Source: Syntrophales bacterium (GTDB lineage Bacteria; Desulfobacterota; Syntrophia; Syntrophales; PHBD01). From it: a stretch of 64,000 bases of DNA. Of this stretch, positions 48,777-58,917 are shown piece after piece (within the stretch, counting starts at the first letter, position 1; every line of letters starts with the position of its first letter). Position numbers and translations under genes: made by a program. Below the pieces are notes generated by a model, which had not been told where the DNA came from, did not search any database, and saw only the letters and a list, made by a program, of their open reading frames with translations. The stretch lies in the NCBI GenBank assembly GCA_963668175.1, contig OY764159.1, positions 4,320,001-4,384,000 of the forward strand, in the 5' to 3' direction.

Positions 48777-51023
48777 ATGAACGAGAAAATCAAGAAATTA
48801 TTCTCCATTTCTCCCCTGAAAATAACATCATTCATTATATTCGTTGCCCTGGCCTTCTACATCGGCAATGTATCCTTCCTGCAGTTCATGGAACTCAAAG
48901 CCCTCGACCTGAGAATGAAATCGCGGGGCAAGCTGAAATCCGGCGGAGAAACCGTCATTGCCGTGGTGGATGAAAAGAGTCTGAAGGAGATCGGCCGCTG
49001 GCCATGGCCCCGAACAACGGTGGCCAAACTTGTCGATACACTGAAATCCTGTGGGGCCAAAGCCGTCGGCTTCGATATCGTGTTTGCCGAACCCGATCAA
49101 AACTCCAGCCTCAAGACCATTAAGTCATTAACCCATGAAGCGAAGGAAAGAGGGATCAAGGATCGCGGCCTCTACGGCCTTCTTGCCAAAGAACGTATGG
49201 CGGCCGACACGGACGCCGCCTTGGCTCACTCCATCAAGAAGGCCGGAAACGTCACCGTTGGTTACTTTTTCCATCTCTCCAGGGCCGATGTGGGCCATTT
49301 GAGTGAAAAACAGAAAGAGATATCGAAGGAAAGTATCGCCGGTTCCCGATATCAGATGGTCCAGGCCGACGCGAATCTCCATGAAGACATGCTGATCAGG
49401 GCCTATGCAGCGGAAGCCAATCTGCCGGAAATATCGGCGGCGGCGCAGGTCTCGGGGTATTTTAACGCTTACCCCGATGAAGACGGCGTCATCCGCTGGA
49501 CGCCCCTGATTACGAAAATGGGGGACGACTATTACCATTCCCTGGCTATAGGCATGCTGCTCCAGTATTTCGATTGGCCAACTTTGACCGTAAAACTGGG
49601 GGAAGGCGTCGAATCGATCAAGCTCGACACAATTGAAATCCCGACGGACGAAAGCGGCCGGATGCTCATCAATTATCTCGGCCCCGCCAAAACCTTTCCC
49701 CATTATTCGATTTCAGACATCCTTAACAAGCGTCTGTCTCCGGAGCTCTTCAAGGACAAGATCGTCCTCGTCGGCGTTACGGCTACCGGTGTCTACGACC
49801 TCCGTGTTACACCCTTCAGTACCGTCTATCCCGGAGTGGAAATCCATGCCAATGTCATCGACAACATCCTGCATCGTAACTTTCTCAAACATGCCCTCTG
49901 GACCAAGGTGTTGGATCTCCTGTCCATCATATGCTTCGGTCTTGTCATGGGCATAGCCGTCCCCCGCTTCAGGGCCGTCCAGGGAATAGTCCTGTGCCTG
50001 GGACTCCTCATTGTTTTCGTGGTCGTCAATACCTTTATTTTCGGCCACTACAATATCTGGCTGAACCTGATCTATCCCACACTGACCATGATGACGATCT
50101 ACCTCGGCATTACCATCTACCGTTATGTCACTGAAGAAAAGGAGAAGAAGAAGATTCGCGGTGCCTTCCAGTACTATTTGACCGCTTCCGTCATCAACGA
50201 GATGCTTAAGGACCCGTCGAAGCTGAAGCTCGGAGGCGACAAGAAGAACCTGTCCGTCCTGTTCTCCGATATCCGCGGATTCACAACCGTCTCGGAAAAA
50301 TTGACGCCGGAGGAGCTGGTCCATTTGCTGAACGAATACCTCACGGCCATGACGGATATCGTCTTCAAATACGACGGGCTCCTGGACAAATACATGGGTG
50401 ACGCAATCATGGCCGTCTACGGAGCGCCCCTGGACCAACCGGACCATCCATTGCGCGCGTGCCGGACAGCCCTGGACATGATCGAGGCATTGAAGAAGCT
50501 CCAGGGGAAATGGTCAGCCGAGGGAAGGCCGGTTCTCAATATCGGCGTCGGCATCAACACGGGGGAGATGGTCGTCGGCAATATGGGATCGCAGATGCGC
50601 TTCGATTATACCGTCATGGGCGACAGCGTGAATCTGGGCTCCCGTTTGGAAGGCATCAATAAGGAATATGGGACGAATATCGTCATCAGCGAGTTCACTT
50701 ACGAAGCTGTAAAGGATACCCTGTTGTGCCGGGAACTGGACTCCGTCCGGGTGAAGGGCAAAAAACTCCCCGTCAAGATCTATGAACTGGTCGGTGTCAG
50801 AGACGAAGCACCCAAGTGGGAGCAATTCCTCGCCCATTTCAACGACGGACTGGCCAAGTATAAAGGGATGCAATGGGACGAGGCCGTCGCCGCCTTCCGC
50901 AAGGCCCTGGAAATCAGGCCCGGCGATCCGCCGACGGAGATGTACGTCGACAGATGCCTTGAACTGAAGGGACATCCGCCTCAGGGTACATGGGACGGCG
51001 TATTTACAATGACGAGAAAATAA
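48777..51023 (+). CDS. CHASE2-domain class III adenylate cyclase
   Basis: CHASE2 (GRWPWPR, GFDIVFAEP, PGVEIHAN), 3 TM, cyclase motifs FSDIRGFT, DKYMGDA, YTVMGDSVNLGSRLEG (Lys/Thr adenine specifiers) and a TPR-like tail. Confidence 0.93.
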   Translation: MNEKIKKLFSISPLKITSFIIFVALAFYIGNVSFLQFMELKALDLRMKSRGKLKSGGETVIAVVDEKSLKEIGRWPWPRTTVAKLVDTLKSCGAKAVGFDIVFAEPDQNSSLKTIKSLTHEAKERGIKDRGLYGLLAKERMAADTDAALAHSIKKAGNVTVGYFFHLSRADVGHLSEKQKEISKESIAGSRYQMVQADANLHEDMLIRAYAAEANLPEISAAAQVSGYFNAYPDEDGVIRWTPLITKMGDDYYHSLAIGMLLQYFDWPTLTVKLGEGVESIKLDTIEIPTDESGRMLINYLGPAKTFPHYSISDILNKRLSPELFKDKIVLVGVTATGVYDLRVTPFSTVYPGVEIHANVIDNILHRNFLKHALWTKVLDLLSIICFGLVMGIAVPRFRAVQGIVLCLGLLIVFVVVNTFIFGHYNIWLNLIYPTLTMMTIYLGITIYRYVTEEKEKKKIRGAFQYYLTASVINEMLKDPSKLKLGGDKKNLSVLFSDIRGFTTVSEKLTPEELVHLLNEYLTAMTDIVFKYDGLLDKYMGDAIMAVYGAPLDQPDHPLRACRTALDMIEALKKLQGKWSAEGRPVLNIGVGINTGEMVVGNMGSQMRFDYTVMGDSVNLGSRLEGINKEYGTNIVISEFTYEAVKDTLLCRELDSVRVKGKKLPVKIYELVGVRDEAPKWEQFLAHFNDGLAKYKGMQWDEAVAAFRKALEIRPGDPPTEMYVDRCLELKGHPPQGTWDGVFTMTRK

Positions 51024-51040
51024 TCGGTCGGAAAGGAATC

Positions 51041-52999
51041 ATGGCGAGAAAAGAAGAATTGCAATACCGGAGCTGGATTGAGGTCGATCTCGACAATTTT
51101 ACCGGCAACTGGCTCGAAATGAAGAGGCTCGTCACGGAGGACGTTTCGATCATGCAGGTCGTCAAGGCCGATGCCTACGGCCATGGCGCGATAGAAATTT
51201 CCAACGTCGCCCTTAAAAACGGGGCGTCCATGTTGGGCGTGGCCAACGCCGACGAGGGCGTTCAACTCCGCGTCAGCGGCATAACGGCGCCTGTCGTCAT
51301 CCTGAGCCCATCGCCGGCTTCGGAAATCAGCCAGATCATCAAATACAACCTCACGCCGTCCGTGTCCGACCTCGGCTTCGCCAGAGAACTTCAGAAGAGG
51401 AGCAGGAAAGCCAATATCACAACGCCCGTTCATATCGAGGTGGACACGGGGATGGGCCGCGGCGGCACCATGCAGCACGAAGCCTTCAACATGATCCAGG
51501 AACTTACAGCCCTGCCCAACATCTACGTCGAGGGCATCTTCACCCATCTTTCCTCAAGTGAAATGCTCGACGACTACAACGAAATGCAATGGCTGCTCTT
51601 TAAAGATCTTCTGGCAAAACTCGATGCGAGCGGCATTGCCATCCCCCTCCGACACATGTCGAATAGCGGCGCGGTCCTCAATTACAGAAAATTCAACCTG
51701 AACATGGTCCGGCCGGGGCTCATGTCCTACGGCGCCCACCCGGGCGATGAAACCAAAGAACTGGCCAGACTGTCGCCGGTCATGAGTTTTAAGAGCCGGA
51801 TCGTCCTGCTCAAGGAATTTCCCTCCGGCTACAGTATCGGCTACGGTCGCACCTTTATCACGAACAAGCCGACCCGGATCGCCACCATCCCCGTGGGTTA
51901 CGGCGACGGATACGGACGCATCCTTTCCAACCAGGGGGAGGCCCTCATCGGGGGGAAGCGCTGTCCCCTCGTCGGCCTGATTTCCATGGACATGTGCACC
52001 GTCGACGTTACCGCCGTCACGGACTGCAAGATAGGCGACGAGGTCGTTCTGATGGGTAAGCAGGGCGATGAATGCATCACGGCGGACGACATTGCCGCCC
52101 GGGAGGGTACTATCAGTTACGAGGTCTTGTGCGCTCTGGGGAAGCGCGCCCCCAGGGTCTTCCTGCACAAGGGAAGGACCGACGCCGTGGAACCGCGGCT
52201 GAGACGGATTTTCATTCCCGACGAGGAAAAATCCATCACCCGGATCGACAGCATCGTACGCCACTGCTTTCAGACCAGGGCGCAAAACGCCGAAATGGGC
52301 GACGCCATCTACTACGAAATGTTCGAAACCCTCTTCGGCAAGGAAGACCGCCAACTGGAATTGAGAACGAACTTCCGCTATGATATCAACGTCTGTGAAT
52401 TCACGGATGACGAAGCGCTGCAGGAAAAGAACGCCGGCGATTTTCTCCGGGTTGCAACCCACATCTGTTACAACAAAACGATCCGCGAGTCCGTTTTCAT
52501 GATCGGCTGCGCCCTCAACAACGAGCAACTGGAAGCCTTCTTCGAGGACAAGCGCTGCGAATACCGGTGGCTCCTCAACCGGGGCGACGAACCGATTACA
52601 GAAAAAGATTTCCGCGTTACCGCCGTGCGCATCGACAACGAAGACATCCCCTTCATCAAGACCGAAAACACGGATCGCGGCTACGAAGTCTGGTGCGGCG
52701 GAGATCAGTTGAAAAAGAAACTCAACAAACAGGTCAAAGTGGAAATCGAGATCGTCACCAAAAAGCTCAAAAGCAACAACCTTTTTTCCGTCTATCTTGT
52801 CTACCCCACGCGGGGCCTCGATATTTCTTTCAATTATGAAAAGGCGAATTTCAAACGGGTCCGGGAGGTCAGTTTCTTCGCCGGCAAGCATCCTTACCCG
52901 GAAACATCGAGGGAGAGGGGAAAATCCATCACCGTTAAGATCGGGGAAGACGAGTGGATATTCCCCAACAGCGGTGTAACCTTCATTTGGGATCTATAG
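51041..52999 (+). CDS. alr: Alanine racemase fused to an uncharacterised C-terminal domain (652 aa)
   Basis: VVKADAYGHG (PLP Lys), DTGMGR, MVRPG, SIGYG (catalytic Tyr), GYGDG and ISYE...KRAPRV, then about 270 extra residues. SD AAGGA before ATG 51041. Confidence 0.9.
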   Translation: MARKEELQYRSWIEVDLDNFTGNWLEMKRLVTEDVSIMQVVKADAYGHGAIEISNVALKNGASMLGVANADEGVQLRVSGITAPVVILSPSPASEISQIIKYNLTPSVSDLGFARELQKRSRKANITTPVHIEVDTGMGRGGTMQHEAFNMIQELTALPNIYVEGIFTHLSSSEMLDDYNEMQWLLFKDLLAKLDASGIAIPLRHMSNSGAVLNYRKFNLNMVRPGLMSYGAHPGDETKELARLSPVMSFKSRIVLLKEFPSGYSIGYGRTFITNKPTRIATIPVGYGDGYGRILSNQGEALIGGKRCPLVGLISMDMCTVDVTAVTDCKIGDEVVLMGKQGDECITADDIAAREGTISYEVLCALGKRAPRVFLHKGRTDAVEPRLRRIFIPDEEKSITRIDSIVRHCFQTRAQNAEMGDAIYYEMFETLFGKEDRQLELRTNFRYDINVCEFTDDEALQEKNAGDFLRVATHICYNKTIRESVFMIGCALNNEQLEAFFEDKRCEYRWLLNRGDEPITEKDFRVTAVRIDNEDIPFIKTENTDRGYEVWCGGDQLKKKLNKQVKVEIEIVTKKLKSNNLFSVYLVYPTRGLDISFNYEKANFKRVREVSFFAGKHPYPETSRERGKSITVKIGEDEWIFPNSGVTFIWDL

Positions 53000-53034
53000 A
53001 CTCAATCCTTCTATTCTAAAAGGTGTGGTGCCTC

Positions 53035-53724
53035 ATGATGCAGAAAACAGAAGAGAGGGAAACCTATCTCCAGCCGACGGCGTTCATCGATTCCGACTCG
53101 GCAGCAACAATATCTTTCGCCGAGGCGGCCTCCGCGTCGGCGTCCACGGAGACGGAAAAAGCCATCAGGCTCTATTATGCCGTCCGCGACGGCATCCGCT
53201 ATGACCCTTACCGGATAGATCTTACTCGCAACGGTTTGAAGGCAAGCACGATCCTTAGCAGAGGTTACGGGTATTGCGTGGCAAAAGCCATCGTCCTTGC
53301 CGCCGCGGCCCGGTCCGTGGGAATTCCCAGCCGTCTCGGATTCGCCAACGTCCGCAACCACCTGATCACGGAAAGACTGCGGCAACTCATGAAGACCGAT
53401 GACTTCATCTTCCACGGATACACCGAACTCCATCTCGACGGCCGCTGGCTCAAGGCAACGCCTACATTCAACCTCGACCTATGCAATCGTTTCGGCGTAA
53501 AGCCCCTGGATTTCGACGGAAAGACCGACGCCCTGCTCCATCCGTTCGACGCCAAGGGAAACAAGCACATGGAATACACATGCGATCACGGGCATTTCGC
53601 CGATGTGCCCTACGAGCGTATCCTCGCGATTTTCCGGACGCACTACCCTTTCTACTTCGAGCAGAAGGATTTCAAGGCTGGAGACTTCGAGAGGGAGGCC
53701 CAAGAGGAACACAGAACGCCCTGA
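53035..53724 (+). CDS. Transglutaminase-like family protein
   Basis: YAVRDGIRYDPY, GYCVAKA (catalytic Cys), VRNHL, HGYTE and WLKATP motifs. Confidence 0.9.
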   Translation: MMQKTEERETYLQPTAFIDSDSAATISFAEAASASASTETEKAIRLYYAVRDGIRYDPYRIDLTRNGLKASTILSRGYGYCVAKAIVLAAAARSVGIPSRLGFANVRNHLITERLRQLMKTDDFIFHGYTELHLDGRWLKATPTFNLDLCNRFGVKPLDFDGKTDALLHPFDAKGNKHMEYTCDHGHFADVPYERILAIFRTHYPFYFEQKDFKAGDFEREAQEEHRTP

Positions 53725-54837: not shown

Positions 54838-54899
54838 ACAAAAAGATGCCTTGATTTCCGAGGAACCGATTCGAGGCATTGTCGCGGATGAAAAACGGC

Positions 54900-54937
54900 A
54901 TCCATGGATCCAAAATCATGCATCCATGGATTTTTTT
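54900..54937 (+). terminator. Putative riboswitch-controlled terminator
   Basis: ATCCATGGAT-12 nt-ATCCATGGAT (self-complementary arms) running into a T tract. Confidence 0.5.
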
Positions 54938-54955
54938 ATGGCGGATACGGCAAAA

Positions 54956-55585
54956 ATGCGGAGGCTCATCCTGGTTCGCCACGGCGATACGGGCGACCAA
55001 TTCCGTCGGCGATACATCGGCAGTACGGATATTCCTCTAAGCATCCGGGGACGCCAGCAGGCAGCCGCCTTAAAGAAGATGCTCGGCCGGAACCTGCCAG
55101 CTGTTCGCTTGTCCAGTCCTTTGCTCCGCTGCCGGGAAACGGCCGATATCCTGATGGAAGGAATACCGGGCAGATTCAACATCGATCCGGACTTGAGGGA
55201 AATCGATTTCGGCCAGTGGGAAAAGATGACCTTCGGTGAAATTTTGGCGGCATCGCCGCACGATGTTGCCCGCTGGACGGAATTCGACCCCGATTTCGCC
55301 TTTCCCCGGGGCGAGTCTATCCGCGACTTTCAAGCCAGACTCAAGCGTTTCGCTGAGACACTCGCGGCTACAGACGCCGATTCCGTCCTGGCCGTCACTC
55401 ACGGCGGCGTCATCCGTTTCCTTATCTGCCAGTTTCTGCAACTTTCGCCCTGGCAGTACATTCTGTTCGAAGTAAAACCCGCATCTGTAACGGTGATCCA
55501 GGTTAGTGAAGGCAAAGGCACCCTTGCCGGACTGAATCTGACCGCCGAACCCCACCCCGGTTTACTCTTCCCCGGGACTGTTTAA
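54956..55585 (+). CDS. cobC: Histidine phosphatase, alpha-ribazole phosphatase
   Basis: LVRHG, SSPLLRC, LREIDFGQWE, GES and VTHGG motifs, in a cob operon. Start uncertain. Confidence 0.85.
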   Translation: MRRLILVRHGDTGDQFRRRYIGSTDIPLSIRGRQQAAALKKMLGRNLPAVRLSSPLLRCRETADILMEGIPGRFNIDPDLREIDFGQWEKMTFGEILAASPHDVARWTEFDPDFAFPRGESIRDFQARLKRFAETLAATDADSVLAVTHGGVIRFLICQFLQLSPWQYILFEVKPASVTVIQVSEGKGTLAGLNLTAEPHPGLLFPGTV

Positions 55586-55599
55586 AGGAGACTGTCCGT

Positions 55600-56148
55600 A
55601 TGGCGGAGATCATCCTGGTTACCGGCGGCTGTCGCAGCGGCAAAAGCAAATATGCCCAGAAAATCGCCGAATCCGATCCGGGCTCCAAGACCTACATTGC
55701 CACCTGTCCCTGCCTGGACGAGGAAATGGCCGAACGGATCCGAAAACACAAAGAGGCGCGCAATTCGTCCTGGTTGACCGTCGAAGAGACGCTGGACCTT
55801 ACCGGGGCATTGAGCCTGTCGGCGGCAAATTCTGTCATTCTCGTGGATTGTCTCACCTTGTGGATCAACAACCTCCTCTATGATGCGGACGTTAAGGGAA
55901 GAGAATTCAGTGAAGAGGACATGGTCCGGCAGTGCCGGAAAGTGCTCGATTCGTGTTCGCTGATATCCGGCAAAGTCATCTTCGTCACCAACGAAACCGG
56001 TATGGGCATTGTCCCTGCCGACGCGCTGACCAGGCGTTTTCGCGATATAGCGGGGCGCTGTAATCAAACCATCGCGGAGAAGGCCGATTCCGTTGTTTTC
56101 ATGGTTAGCGGTATACCACTCACTTTAAAAGGAGATATCTGCAAATGA
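55600..56148 (+). CDS. cobU: Adenosylcobinamide kinase / cobinamide-phosphate guanylyltransferase
   Basis: GGCRSGKS, YIAT, EMAERIRKH, LVDCLTLW and VTNETGMG motifs. Confidence 0.95.
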   Translation: MAEIILVTGGCRSGKSKYAQKIAESDPGSKTYIATCPCLDEEMAERIRKHKEARNSSWLTVEETLDLTGALSLSAANSVILVDCLTLWINNLLYDADVKGREFSEEDMVRQCRKVLDSCSLISGKVIFVTNETGMGIVPADALTRRFRDIAGRCNQTIAEKADSVVFMVSGIPLTLKGDICK

Positions 56149-57209
56149 CCCTGTTGGAAAAAACCATTGCCGGAATCACGCCGGCCGATCCGAAGACTCG
56201 CACCAAAGCCCGGGCAAGGCTGGAACAGCTGACGATGCCCTATTGGGCTCTGGGACGCCTGATGGATCTCGCCGAGGAGTTGGCGGCCATGACGGGCTCC
56301 ATGAACCCTCCCGTTGCCCGCAAGACGGTCGTTACCATGGCGGGAGACCACGGCGTGACCGCTCAGGGAGTCAGTAAATATCCGGCCGAAGTCACGCTCC
56401 AGATGGTCCGTAATTTCGTGAACGGCGGCGCCGGAATCAACGCCCTTGCCCGTCTGGCAGGGGCCAGAGTCGTCGTCGTCGACATGGGCGTTGCCGGAGA
56501 CCTGAGTGATCTTGTTCATGCGGGAAAGATCATGTCCCGACGAATCGGTGCGGGAACGAAAGACATGGCTTCCGGACCGGCCATGACCCGCGATGAAGCC
56601 ATCCGCTGCCTGGAAGCGGGAATCGAAATAGCGACCGCACTCAGCCCCGATACGGATATTTTCGGCACGGGTGAAATGGGCATAGGCAATACGTCGCCGA
56701 GCAGCGCCATCGTTTCCATCTTCGGCCGGACACCGGTAGCCGACGTCACCGGAAAGGGGACCGGCGTCGACGACAAGGCGCTCGCGCACAAGGTCGCCGT
56801 TATTGAAAGAGCCATCCGGCTAAACCGGCCTGATGACGGTGACCCCATCGACGTCCTGGCCAAGGTGGGCGGTTTTGAAATCGGGGGCCTGGCCGGCTTG
56901 ATCCTCGGCGCCGCCGCGATGAAGAAACCTGTTCTCGTGGACGGCTTCATATCCACGGCCGGGGCGCTCATCGCGTCCCGCTTGGCTCCCCTGTGTTGCG
57001 ATTACATCATCGCCTCCCACCGGAGCATGGAAAAGGGACACCGCATCGCCCTCAATACCCTCGGCAAAGCCCCCCTTCTCGATCTGGATCTCAGGCTGGG
57101 GGAAGGAACCGGCGCCGCCCTGGCCATGCATCTCGTCGAAGCGGCCGTCAAAATCCTCACGGAAGTCGCAACATTCGAAGAGGCATCCGTCTCGAAAGCG
57201 AATTCATGA
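56145..57209 (+). CDS. cobT: Nicotinate-nucleotide--dimethylbenzimidazole phosphoribosyltransferase
   Basis: AGDHGV, GEMGIGNT, GGFEIG, DGFI and LRLGEGTGA motifs. Confidence 0.96.
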   Translation: MTLLEKTIAGITPADPKTRTKARARLEQLTMPYWALGRLMDLAEELAAMTGSMNPPVARKTVVTMAGDHGVTAQGVSKYPAEVTLQMVRNFVNGGAGINALARLAGARVVVVDMGVAGDLSDLVHAGKIMSRRIGAGTKDMASGPAMTRDEAIRCLEAGIEIATALSPDTDIFGTGEMGIGNTSPSSAIVSIFGRTPVADVTGKGTGVDDKALAHKVAVIERAIRLNRPDDGDPIDVLAKVGGFEIGGLAGLILGAAAMKKPVLVDGFISTAGALIASRLAPLCCDYIIASHRSMEKGHRIALNTLGKAPLLDLDLRLGEGTGAALAMHLVEAAVKILTEVATFEEASVSKANS

Positions 57210-57964
57210 AACCATTCTTCGCCGCCCTTCAATTCTTGACCGTCGTTCCCCTGCCTCAAGGCTGGTCCGGCGACCAACGCGCCCTGTCGAAGAGTGTCAC
57301 GTTCTTCCCCATTATCGGCCTTCTGATCGGCATTTCGGCCGCAGCGATCGACATCGTCTTGAACGCCCTCCTGCCCCAGCTTCCGGCGAGCGTTATCGTG
57401 GTGATCTATCTTATGGCCGTCTCGGGCGGATTCCACATGGACGGGCTGGCGGACACAGCAGACGGATTCTTCAGCTCCCGTCCCCGCGATAAAATCCTCG
57501 ACATCATGCGCGACAGCCGCACCGGCGCCATGGGCGTCATGGCCATCGTATCCGTCTTTGTCCTGAAGGTATCGCTGCTCGCCGGGATCCCTTCCCCCTT
57601 GCGCGTGTCGACCCTTATCCTGATGCCGGTCGCCGGCCGGTGCGCCCTGACCGTCGTCATGACAATTCTCCCCTATGCCAGGCAGGAAGGAGGGCTCGCC
57701 AGCCTCTTTCAGTCATCCCGTTCATGGCACCAGATACCCTGGGTGCTGGTTGTTCTCATCGCCTCAAGCTGGATTGCCGTTCAATGGACCGGCATCGTCG
57801 CCGCGGCCTTTTCCGTGTTCGTCATGCTGGCCTTTTCCGCCTACAGTCGGCAAAAGATCGGCGGGTTCACGGGCGACACGCTGGGGGCTGCCTGTGAACT
57901 GACGGAACTGGCGCCGGCCATTGTCGTTTTGATATCCTTAAAAATCGGACTTGCGACATGGTGA
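57206..57964 (+). CDS. cobS: Adenosylcobinamide-GDP ribazoletransferase (cobalamin synthase)
   Basis: QFLT, HMDGLADTADG, IMRDSRTG and GGFTGDTLGA motifs. Confidence 0.95.
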   Translation: MKPFFAALQFLTVVPLPQGWSGDQRALSKSVTFFPIIGLLIGISAAAIDIVLNALLPQLPASVIVVIYLMAVSGGFHMDGLADTADGFFSSRPRDKILDIMRDSRTGAMGVMAIVSVFVLKVSLLAGIPSPLRVSTLILMPVAGRCALTVVMTILPYARQEGGLASLFQSSRSWHQIPWVLVVLIASSWIAVQWTGIVAAAFSVFVMLAFSAYSRQKIGGFTGDTLGAACELTELAPAIVVLISLKIGLATW

Positions 57965-58917
57965 ACTGGCCGTGGGGTTCAGAATACCAGATCGCCGCCG
58001 CCCTGCTCCTTGATTTCCTGCTGGGCGATCCGCGGTGGCTTCCCCATCCCGTAAGGCTGATCGGCCGTTTCGCCGCCTGGCTGGAAACCCCTTTTCGCCG
58101 GATGTTCCGTCATGCCGGCGCCGCCGGTATCGCGGCCGCTCTCACCGTTCTTTCCGCCACGGGAATACTGACCTGCCTTGTGATGCGAGGCGCGGCCAGC
58201 ATCCATCCCTTGCTGGGCGACATCGTATCCATCCTGATTCTCTATACCTGCTTTGCCGCAAGGGACCTTGTCGGACACGCCCTCTCCGTCCACGCAGCCC
58301 TGAAGCGGGGCCGTATCGAGGAGGCGCGGCAAAAAGTCTCGTACATCGTCGGCCGCGACACCGATAAGCTTGACGGAACCGCCGTTATCAGGGCGACGGT
58401 CGAGAGTGTCGCCGAAAGCACCGTTGACGGCGTCACGGCCCCTTTGTTCTATGCCCTTCTGGGCGGCCCCCTGGCGGCTATCCTCTATAAGGCCGTAAGC
58501 ACGCTGGACTCCACTTTCGGCTATAAGAACGAACGGTATCGTGATTTCGGCCGGGCATCGGCCCGCCTGGACGATCTGGTTAACTATCTTCCCGCACGTC
58601 TCACGGCCGTTATCATCCCGACGGCGGCCCTGATATTGGGACAAAGGCCTATCCAGGCCGTCAGGATAGCCTTGCGAGACGGAAGGAGGCACGCCAGCCC
58701 GAATTCGGGATGGTCCGAAGCGGCTTTTGCCGGAGCATTGGGTATCCAGTTGGGCGGACCGGTCACAAGGGCGGGCAAACCGTCCATAATGCCGCTCATG
58801 GGCGACCCCGTTCGCCCTTTGGTCAACTCGGACATTATACGGGCTTCCTTCCTGATGCTGGCCACGTGCCTTCTTTTTACCGTCGCTTTGATCGGCCTGA
58901 AATGGCTTGTTTCATGA
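57958..58917 (+). CDS. cbiB: Adenosylcobinamide-phosphate synthase
   Basis: GDPRWLPHPV, IVGRDT, ESVAES, TLDS..GY and SPNSGW motifs. Confidence 0.95.
   Translation: MVNWPWGSEYQIAAALLLDFLLGDPRWLPHPVRLIGRFAAWLETPFRRMFRHAGAAGIAAALTVLSATGILTCLVMRGAASIHPLLGDIVSILILYTCFAARDLVGHALSVHAALKRGRIEEARQKVSYIVGRDTDKLDGTAVIRATVESVAESTVDGVTAPLFYALLGGPLAAILYKAVSTLDSTFGYKNERYRDFGRASARLDDLVNYLPARLTAVIIPTAALILGQRPIQAVRIALRDGRRHASPNSGWSEAAFAGALGIQLGGPVTRAGKPSIMPLMGDPVRPLVNSDIIRASFLMLATCLLFTVALIGLKWLVS

What the first reader, a model, noticed from the sequence alone, without database searches (positions are those of the whole stretch)
52175..52999. Unassigned ~270-aa C-terminal domain fused to alanine racemase
Seen: after the usual Alr end (ISYEVLCALGKRAPRVF) the frame continues without a stop through a helical linker into a beta-strand-rich region ending YPTRGLDISFNY...VSFFAG...GKSITV...WIFPNSGVTFIW. 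It is not the MurF-type fusion known for some Alr proteins. From recall (unverified), the PTRGL...W.FP.SGV.F.W ending resembles soluble domains of uncharacterised membrane-anchored proteins in other phyla. Inference: a mobile beta-sandwich ligand-sensing domain that makes this racemase allosterically regulated.
Basis: partly seen in the sequence, partly recalled or inferred. Interest (0 to 1): 0.75.

Follow-up and report, generated by a model that had tools for sequence, protein, structure and literature searches.

The report
Alanine racemase with unannotated beta-sandwich tail
The only alanine racemase of this bacterium, and of nearly its whole order, carries a well-folded, strongly conserved extra domain that no database describes and that probably acts as a tethered binding or regulatory module for the D-alanine branch of cell-wall synthesis.

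Summary

This gene is the genome's only Alr. The fusion is present in 143 of 151 genomes of the order. Fused Alrs from other phyla group with it in both the module tree and the catalytic-domain tree. In 39 of 56 relatives ddl follows directly, but not here.

The module also occurs behind 1-3 transmembrane helices, and the two such loci recovered sit beside ddl, murF-like and vanX-like genes. It also follows a TIR-like domain and PycC-like cyclases.

Its function is inferred. It is most likely a tethered, non-catalytic binding module that couples or regulates Alr. No paper found describes it. The scan noted the same fusion earlier in other genomes.

The parts
51041..52999 (+). Whole gene: 652-aa alanine racemase plus C-terminal module, with stop TAG at 52997-52999
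   Evidence: ORF. The 652-aa database twin P0001 sets the start, with an RBS-like GGAAAGGA upstream. Stop seen.
51041..52174 (+). Alanine racemase catalytic part (residues 1-378; PLP barrel and C-terminal beta domain)
   Evidence: PF01168 4.2e-64 and PF00842 1.6e-48. TIGR00492 362.5 bits against cut-off 168. 4y2w_A E 5.7e-91, aligned 13-378. K42, R140, R224 and Y268 are invariant in 43 fused proteins.
52175..52234 (+). Linker (residues 379-398, ...VEPRLRRIFIPDEEKS...): conserved in sequence but predicted flexible
   Evidence: P385, R388, R389 and P393 are at least 90% conserved in 43 fusions, including those of other phyla. pLDDT is under 50 for residues 383-401 in the full-length model and 52-69 in the domain-only model.
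52235..52336 (+). Helical hairpin (residues 399-432) that precedes the sandwich in all architectures
   Evidence: Helices 21-36 and 39-54 of the domain model have pLDDT 90-97. Helices 399-413 and 417-432 in the full-length model have only pLDDT 38-57. The hairpin aligns with the post-membrane helices of the TM-anchored homologues.
52364..52996 (+). Beta-sandwich (residues 442-652) of the LTA4H / M1-aminopeptidase N-terminal type, ending in the family signature W.FP.SGV.F.W

Best explanation
The gene encodes the organism's single housekeeping alanine racemase. It is joined by a conserved but flexible 20-residue linker to a non-catalytic accessory module (helical hairpin plus LTA4H-N-like beta-sandwich) from an unannotated family. 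Shown: the fold, the strong conservation, the single origin of the fusion, and the other architectures of the family. Inferred: the module is a tethered binding domain that couples Alr to the D-Ala-D-Ala branch of peptidoglycan precursor synthesis. It would do so by holding a partner enzyme (Ddl or MurF) or a pathway intermediate close to the racemase, and so tune or localise an enzyme that is otherwise unregulated and freely reversible. It is an accessory part, not a requirement for catalysis.
For: (1) The Alr part is complete and its catalytic residues are invariant. It is the only PF00842 hit in a closed, 100%-complete genome. The other PF01168 hits are YggS and LysA.
(2) The module is under selection as strong as that on the enzyme: median identity 67.3% against 69.6% in 171 fusions. 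It is present in 143 of 151 genomes of the order, 114 of 117 high-quality genomes and 61 of 62 genera.
(3) In 61 genomes of the order at least 95% complete, 59 have an Alr_C match, 58 have exactly one, and 56 of the matches lie in frames of 594 aa or more.
(4) The fold is the accessory beta-sandwich that in M1 peptidases, LTA4H, Ost1/ribophorin I, TAF2 and DUF4424 sits beside a catalytic domain or inside a multi-subunit complex. The DUF4424 authors proposed a role in assembling multi-enzyme complexes (PMC3848476, abstract read). No conserved Cys/His/Asp set suggests catalysis.
(5) There is a link to the D-Ala branch that does not depend on Alr. The closest non-Alr relatives are the 3-TM 'group I' proteins. 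Both group I loci recovered lie in such a context: murF-like, ddl, a 141-aa ORF, then the module protein in L031; ddl, the module protein, then a VanX-like M15 dipeptidase in L032.
(6) ddl lies directly downstream on the same strand in 39 of 56 genomes of the order (9 of 17; 30 of 39).
(7) There is a precedent: MurF'-Alr fusions, in which the extra region changes Alr kinetics (PMC13726279, abstract and passages). One such fusion exists in this phylum (G230).
(8) The full-length model shows two confident domains joined by a low-confidence linker (pTM 0.60), which fits a tethered module.
Against: In this genome ddl is not adjacent: its orthologue lies about 80 kb away among unrelated genes. alr-ddl linkage would be expected for any Alr and says nothing about the tail. 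The independent link rests on only 2 metagenome loci. The other half of the family points elsewhere. Group II TM proteins sit beside a B12-radical-SAM gene in 3 of 4 loci, twice with LarB/C/E, an SHC-like gene and DUF362, and once among GNAT and hydrolase genes. Further members carry PycC-like cyclase or TIR-like N-termini. The module is therefore generic, and its partner in Alr may have nothing to do with Ddl or MurF. G044 keeps an orthologous Alr (60.7% identity) with a stop in the linker and no sandwich, so the module can be lost. The conserved linker is unexplained by a simple tether.
Confidence: 0.4

Rival explanations
1. Allosteric ligand sensor. The sandwich binds a small molecule and transmits the signal to the racemase. 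In the TM, TIR-like and cyclase homologues it would do the same for those N-terminal domains.
For: The family always sits C-terminal to a different N-terminal 'output' domain: Alr, TM helices, PycC-like cyclase or TIR-like. That layout is typical of sensor-effector proteins. A few polar positions are fixed in the Alr, group I and group III clade: R131 in all three groups, and K101, Y130 and S266 in two of the three.
Against: No pocket or ligand was identified. No known sensor family matches. The full-length model gives no confident interface through which a signal could pass (pTM 0.60, linker pLDDT under 50). Known members of this fold class are accessory or assembly domains, not small-molecule sensors.
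Confidence: 0.25
2. Self-association module. The tail drives or stabilises dimers or higher oligomers of whatever is fused in front of it. All of its partners need self-association to work, by established knowledge: Alr and class III cyclases have active sites at a dimer interface, TIR domains act as assemblies, and short TM hairpins act as oligomers.
For: The partner list has this one property in common. The DUF4424 paper proposes complex formation for the fold (abstract). The conserved linker, disordered in a monomer model, could pack in trans in a dimer.
Against: Not tested: the homo-oligomer job could not be run, and a full-length dimer exceeds the tool's size limit. Ordinary Alrs dimerise without such a tail. 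G044 lost the tail.
Confidence: 0.2
3. Second enzyme. The tail has a catalytic activity of its own in D-alanine or cell-wall metabolism.
For: Fusions often join consecutive enzymes of a pathway. Group I relatives lie beside ddl, murF-like and vanX-like genes.
Against: There is no conserved catalytic-type residue set; the near-invariant residues are W, P, G and F of a C-terminal hairpin. Known members of the fold class are non-catalytic. No enzyme family matches.
Confidence: 0.05
4. Artefact: a lost stop codon or mis-assembly joined two genes.
For: None found.
Against: The frame is continuous in a closed genome and in about 140 other genomes of the order. No intact split form was seen. The only breaks are at contig ends, in G122 (one TAA, a 70%-complete genome) and in G044 (domain lost).
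Confidence: 0.01

Closest known systems
Canonical biosynthetic alanine racemase (Alr; TIGR00492; e.g. PDB 4Y2W, 1SFT)
   Same: Residues 1-378 are a complete Alr with the PLP lysine (K42) and the second catalytic residue (Y268) conserved. It is the only Alr in the genome.
   Different: It carries 274 extra C-terminal residues that form a separate folded module. The fused Alrs form their own group, apart from 30 unfused Alrs of the same phylum (SH-aLRT 99).
MurF'-Alr chimeric alanine racemase ('type 3' Alr, Phocaeicola dorei; PMC13726279)
   Same: Alr is fused to a non-racemase region linked to the D-Ala-D-Ala branch, and in that enzyme the extra region modulates Alr kinetics (abstract and passages). 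A MurF-Alr fusion also exists in this phylum (G230, 872 aa).
   Different: There the extra part is N-terminal and is a recognisable Mur ligase. Here it is C-terminal, matches no family, and has a different fold.
N-terminal beta-sandwich domain of LTA4 hydrolase / M1 aminopeptidases, DUF4424 (lpg2210, 4G2A), BDI_1141 (3KD4), Ost1/ribophorin I
   Different: There is no sequence relationship: 5-12% identity, no Pfam hit, and profile against PDB E > 1. This module has its own N-terminal helical hairpin and its own C-terminal W.FP.SGV.F.W signature. It is attached to Alr, TM helices, TIR-like or cyclase domains, not to peptidases.
VanT membrane-bound serine racemase ('type 2')
   Same: A racemase of the Alr family fused to an extra domain.
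   Different: VanT's extra domain is an N-terminal membrane domain. The full-length VanT model scores 217 bits against a cut-off of 900, and this protein has no N-terminal extension.

Membership tests
Alanine racemase (Alr, TIGR00492 / PF01168+PF00842) | Score above the curated cut-off of the equivalog model, over its full length | tested here: met
   TIGR00492 scores 362.5 bits against cut-off 168, model positions 3-368 of 369. PF01168 and PF00842 are both matched full-length.
Alanine racemase (Alr, TIGR00492 / PF01168+PF00842) | PLP-binding lysine and the catalytic tyrosine of the second domain (K39/Y265 in the Geobacillus enzyme; numbering recalled) | tested here: met
   K42 (VVKADAYGHG) and Y268 (SIGYGRT) are invariant in 43 fused proteins and align with solved Alr 4y2w.
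Alanine racemase (Alr, TIGR00492 / PF01168+PF00842) | Racemase activity on L-/D-alanine | not testable with these tools
   Inferred only. It is the sole Alr homologue in a complete genome.
LTA4H / M1-aminopeptidase N-terminal-like beta-sandwich (fold class) | Structural superposition of most of the domain with known members | tested here: met
Pfam sequence families of that fold class (e.g. Peptidase_M1_N and DUF4424/PF14415) | Significant match to the family HMM | tested here: not met
   No Pfam family at E<=1 for the 274-aa tail. None in 21 of the 32 homologues scanned; the rest matched only Alr or cyclase domains, or sub-threshold families.
MurF'-Alr (type 3 Alr) | [quoted passage not shown] | tested here: not met
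   No Mur ligase domain. NF008897 scores 326 bits against cut-off 804 and matches only the Alr part.
VanT (type 2, membrane-bound serine racemase) | N-terminal membrane domain, and a score above the VanT cut-off | tested here: not met
   NF033132 scores 217 bits against cut-off 900, and only positions 332-693 are matched.
Known anti-phage defence sensor/effector families (PADLOC) | Match of the tail to any PADLOC model | tested here: inconclusive
   0 hits for the tail at E<=0.1. Only the N-terminal parts of P0211 and P0218 match PycC.

The most novel reading that the evidence does not exclude
The module is a dedicated reader of the D-Ala-D-Ala branch, binding a precursor or one of its enzymes. 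Bacteria would have wired it to very different outputs: the housekeeping racemase in Syntrophales, Cloacimonadota and Gemmatimonadota; membrane anchors beside ddl, murF and vanX; and TIR-like and PycC-like cyclase proteins. Cell-wall-precursor status would then be an input both for metabolic feedback on Alr and for immune-type signalling proteins.
Probability: 0.1. Interest if true: 0.85.

Novelty: new variant of a known kind. Interest (0 to 1): 0.55.

Why it matters
Alanine racemase is a classic antibiotic target and is usually treated as a stand-alone, unregulated enzyme. A 2026 paper counts only three architectures: canonical, VanT and MurF'-Alr (PMC13726279, passages read). This would be a fourth. 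It is fixed in a whole order of syntrophic bacteria important in methanogenic digesters, and it also occurs in Cloacimonadota and Gemmatimonadota. It also defines a protein family without a Pfam model (150 clusters at 50% identity) with a confident fold and a clear signature. If the module controls or docks Alr, it would be the first dedicated regulatory or adaptor domain for the D-alanine supply of the cell wall.

Tried and rejected
- Complex prediction (Ddl alignment A6 with module alignment A1): the queue was full, and the tool was declared unavailable. Nothing was folded, so no statement on binding can be made.
The narrower A3 gave 3 loci.
- Group III alignment A5 against viral contigs found no relative.
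- tblastn of P0152 and P0153 against plasmids, and of P0153 against phages, found no match.
- The BFVD fold search returned only giant-virus M1-aminopeptidase-like proteins.
- The profile search A1 in the protein database returned almost only Syntrophales fusions and added no new architecture.
- The search for longer forms with A4 found none, which is weak evidence.
- No RNA holder was listed for the gene, and read laying was not used.
- A SAVED/CARF-type cyclic-nucleotide sensor was considered because of the TM, TIR and cyclase partners. Nothing supports it, either in PADLOC or Pfam or in the fold.
- A link between the downstream transglutaminase-like gene and the top fold hit 3KD4 (a 'putative protease') was considered. 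The gene shows no sequence link to any PDB chain and is not conserved next to alr in relatives, so the idea was dropped.
- A triple Alr-module-Ddl fusion in G031 (open frame reported as 1010 aa) was checked. A stop separates the genes.
- The ESM Atlas returned only unnamed clusters for the tail.
- Literature searches found no description of this fusion or family.

Full report
**1. What is there.**
The window holds one open frame, 50990..52999 on the + strand. The identical database protein has 652 aa (P0001). The start is therefore the ATG at 51041, which lies 17 nt after the stop of the upstream gene and follows GGAAAGGA. The stop is TAG at 52997-52999.

Residues 1-378 are a complete alanine racemase:
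- Pfam domains PF01168 and PF00842 are both matched.
- TIGR00492 scores 362.5 bits against a cut-off of 168.
- The closest solved structure, 4y2w_A, has E 5.7e-91 and aligns to residue 378.

This tail matches:
- nothing in Pfam at E<=1;
- nothing credible in NCBIfam;
- nothing in PADLOC;
- no PDB sequence, either as a single sequence or as a 72-sequence profile (best E 1.5).

**2. It is real, conserved and the housekeeping enzyme.**
The genome is one contig of 4.57 Mb, rated 100% complete, and this gene is its only Ala_racemase_C match. The two other PF01168 matches are YggS and diaminopimelate decarboxylase.

The tail is found in 143 of 151 genomes sampled from the order. That includes 114 of 117 high-quality genomes and 61 of 62 genera, and the open frames are nearly all about 650-680 aa. 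Shorter frames lie at contig ends. G122 has one internal TAA.

In 61 genomes of the order that are at least 95% complete:
- 59 have an Alr_C match;
- 58 have exactly one;
- 56 of the matches lie in frames of at least 594 aa.

Among 191 full-length database homologues, 171 have a tail at least 50% identical to this one. In those, the median identity is 67.3% for the tail and 69.6% for the racemase part. K42, R140, R224 and Y268 are invariant in 43 fused proteins. By recalled knowledge of the Geobacillus enzyme, K42 and Y268 are the two catalytic residues.

**3. Exceptions.**
Five of the 8 genomes of the order without the tail were checked for Alr.
- G061 (96% complete) has a 377-aa Alr that is only 35% identical to this one. 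It groups with unfused Alrs of the phylum, so it is a replacement and not a truncation.
- G078 is cut at a contig end.
- G006, G062 and G119 gave no Alr_C match.
- G044 (97% complete), which one search counted as a weak match through its linker remnant, keeps an orthologous Alr (60.7% identity over residues 8-421). It has an in-frame stop inside the linker, and the sandwich is gone. This is either a natural loss of the module or an assembly fault.

**4. Fold.**
A 72-sequence alignment (A1) gave an AlphaFold2 model of the tail with mean pLDDT 93.2 and pTM 0.87. It has a low-confidence first 20 residues, two helices (21-36 and 39-54) and a large beta-sandwich (60-274).

Foldseek against the PDB lists only N-terminal domains of M1 aminopeptidases and LTA4 hydrolase. 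The E-values are around 3e-6 but the TM-scores are low, 0.31-0.38.

VIA-align against 48,161 representative chains gives:

So the fold class is known and its known members are non-catalytic accessory domains. The sequence family is not described. The near-invariant residues are W261, P264, G267, F270 and W272 of the C-terminal hairpin. No catalytic-type set is conserved.

**5. The family and its architectures.**
An exhaustive HMMER search of 1.84 billion cluster representatives found 150 proteins at E<=0.001. They fall into these groups:
- **(a) Alr fusions.** Some are diverged to 25-37% identity in the tail. Source names place them in Gemmatimonadota and Cloacimonadota.
- **(b) Membrane-anchored forms.** Many proteins of 340-420 aa have 1-3 N-terminal hydrophobic helices and the module at the C-terminus. 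They are named only 'hypothetical protein' in Kineosporia, Leptolinea and a Desulfurivibrionaceae MAG.
- **(c) Cyclase forms.** Two proteins have an N-terminal class III cyclase domain that matches Pycsar PycC models (P0211 and P0218).
- **(d) TIR-like forms.** Two proteins have an N-terminus that looks like a TIR domain to a language-model search (score 0.92, all ten best named clusters TIR; a lead only).
- **(e) Short fragments.**

A crude positive-inside count puts the module on the cytoplasmic side in 49 of 71 TM forms, with 7 ties and 15 against. That fits the cytoplasmic partners.

The family is rare outside the Alr fusion. It was found in 2 of 387 genomes of this phylum outside the order and in 2 of 401 genomes of the phylum of Lentzea.

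**6. Evolution.**
In a tree of the module (72 rows, 252 columns, quick IQ-TREE), the family splits into two halves (SH-aLRT 96).
- One half holds all 13 Alr-fused rows (one side of a branch, support 80), TM group I, TM group III and the TIR-like pair.
- The other half holds TM group II and the cyclase pair.

In a tree of the racemase part (52 rows), all 22 fused Alrs lie on one side of a branch (support 99). These are 12 Syntrophales-like rows and 10 from other phyla. On the other side are 30 unfused Alrs of this phylum. 31 loci were tried, and one gave no ORF with the lysine motif.

Both halves of the protein therefore tell the same story: one fusion event, after which the fused gene was inherited in the order and passed between phyla. 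Unfused Alrs of the other phyla were not included, so the donor and direction of transfer are open.

**7. Gene context.**
In this window the neighbours are unrelated to the cell wall:
- a CHASE2-cyclase-TPR protein upstream, 17 nt away;
- a transglutaminase-like protein downstream;
- cobalamin nucleotide-loop genes further on.

In relatives the gene directly downstream on the same strand is a Ddl orthologue. This holds in 9 of 17 genomes and 30 of 39 (40 were fetched and one was too short), so 39 of 56 in total. That count includes 3 of 3 genomes of the sister genus in this family.

Here the Ddl orthologue (73% identical) lies about 80 kb away among unrelated genes, and a 43%-identical paralogue lies elsewhere. 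alr-ddl linkage is expected for any Alr and does not bear on the tail.

The context of the module without Alr does bear on it.
- **Group I.** The two group I loci recovered from metagenomes read murF-like, ddl, a 141-aa ORF, module protein (L031), and ddl, module protein, VanX-like dipeptidase (L032).
- **Group II.** These loci differ. Lentzea and a Melainabacteria MAG share LarC-LarB-LarE on one strand. On the other strand they share a B12-radical-SAM gene, an unknown gene, the module protein, an SHC/prenyltransferase-like gene and DUF362.
- A Desulfobacterota genome has the B12-radical-SAM gene and the module in a mobile-element-like island.
- A fourth locus has neither.

**8. How it probably works.**
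Shown:
- a complete, sole Alr;
- a separately folding, strongly conserved, non-enzyme-like module on a conserved linker;
- a family that always sits C-terminal to a changing N-terminal domain.

The full-length monomer model has confident domains but pTM 0.60. pLDDT is under 50 for residues 383-401 and 428-439. There is thus no sign of a fixed intramolecular interface. The linker (EP.RRR.FIP; P385, R388, R389 and P393 at least 90% conserved) may instead bind in trans.

Inferred readings, with my estimate for each:
- The module is a tethered binding domain that couples Alr to the D-Ala-D-Ala branch, through a partner enzyme or an intermediate (0.4).
- It is an allosteric small-molecule sensor (0.25).
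- It is a self-association module. All four kinds of N-terminal partner need dimers or oligomers to act (0.2).
- It is a second enzyme (0.05).
- It is an artefact (0.01).

**9. Comparison and novelty.**
A 2026 paper defines three Alr architectures, canonical, VanT and MurF'-Alr, and reports that the MurF' region alters Alr kinetics (PMC13726279; abstract and five passages read; no mention of Syntrophales). A MurF-Alr fusion also occurs in this phylum (G230, 872 aa).

The fusion described here is a further architecture. Three full-text searches found no description of it or of the module family. Supplements were not consulted.

Earlier agents of this scan noted the same fusion in other genomes (e1-2190437 and e1-2391358). 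Their statements on conservation, and on the module lying beside D-Ala-D-Ala enzymes, were re-tested here and hold, the second on only two loci.

I rate it a new variant of a known kind: a known enzyme and a known fold class, combined in a new way and through an undescribed family.

Noticed in passing
L117:1042-3657 (G230, same phylum, another family): An 872-aa MurF-Alr fusion (Mur_ligase, Mur_ligase_M, Mur_ligase_C, then Ala_racemase_N and C). This is the 'type 3' architecture that the 2026 paper reports for Bacteroidota and Chloroflexota, here in the window's own phylum.
   Followed up: partly
L119 (G044:C39:15000-19800), minus strand: An orthologous Alr (60.7% identity to residues 8-421) with an in-frame stop inside the conserved linker. 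The beta-sandwich is deleted, while three other genomes of the same genus keep the full fusion. This is a natural truncation or an assembly fault.
   Followed up: partly
L011:2182-11090 (Lentzea sp.) and L012:2205-11129 (Melainabacteria MAG): The same nine-gene arrangement occurs in two phyla. LarC-, LarB- and LarE-like genes lie on one strand. On the other lie a B12-binding radical SAM gene, an unknown 373-379 aa protein, the 2-TM module protein, an SHC/prenyltransferase-like protein and DUF362 (Npun_F2552-like). This looks like an uncharacterised nickel-pincer-cofactor-linked cluster.
   Followed up: partly
window 48777-51023 (+): A 748-aa CHASE2 - class III cyclase - TPR protein ends 17 nt before the alr start, with no terminator-like site between them, so the two genes are probably co-transcribed. 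Relatives were not checked for this pairing.
   Followed up: no
window 53023-53724 (+): A transglutaminase-core protein (PF01841, 3.3e-16) sits 24 nt after alr, at the place where most relatives have ddl. It has no NCBIfam or PDB-sequence match.
   Followed up: partly
window 54851-58917 (+): A run of cobalamin nucleotide-loop genes: a histidine phosphatase (CobC-like), then CobU, CobT (DBI_PRT), CobS and CobD/CbiB.
   Followed up: no
L030 (G190:C28:1-15000): A distant 371-aa member of the module family lies next to a B12-radical-SAM gene. The surrounding island holds an AEP-like primase, an HD phosphohydrolase, a dCMP-deaminase-like protein, Ros/MucR, a Rad52-like protein, a PD-(D/E)XK nuclease and DUF932. 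It looks like a mobile element.
   Followed up: no
L035/L036 (G000 about 1.1445-1.1463 Mb, outside the window): Two adjacent ATP-grasp genes of about 330 aa match Dala_Dala_lig_C (E 2.6e-28 and 1.4e-20). They are only 22-25% identical to the Alr-adjacent Ddl type, so they are probably not Ddl proper.
   Followed up: no
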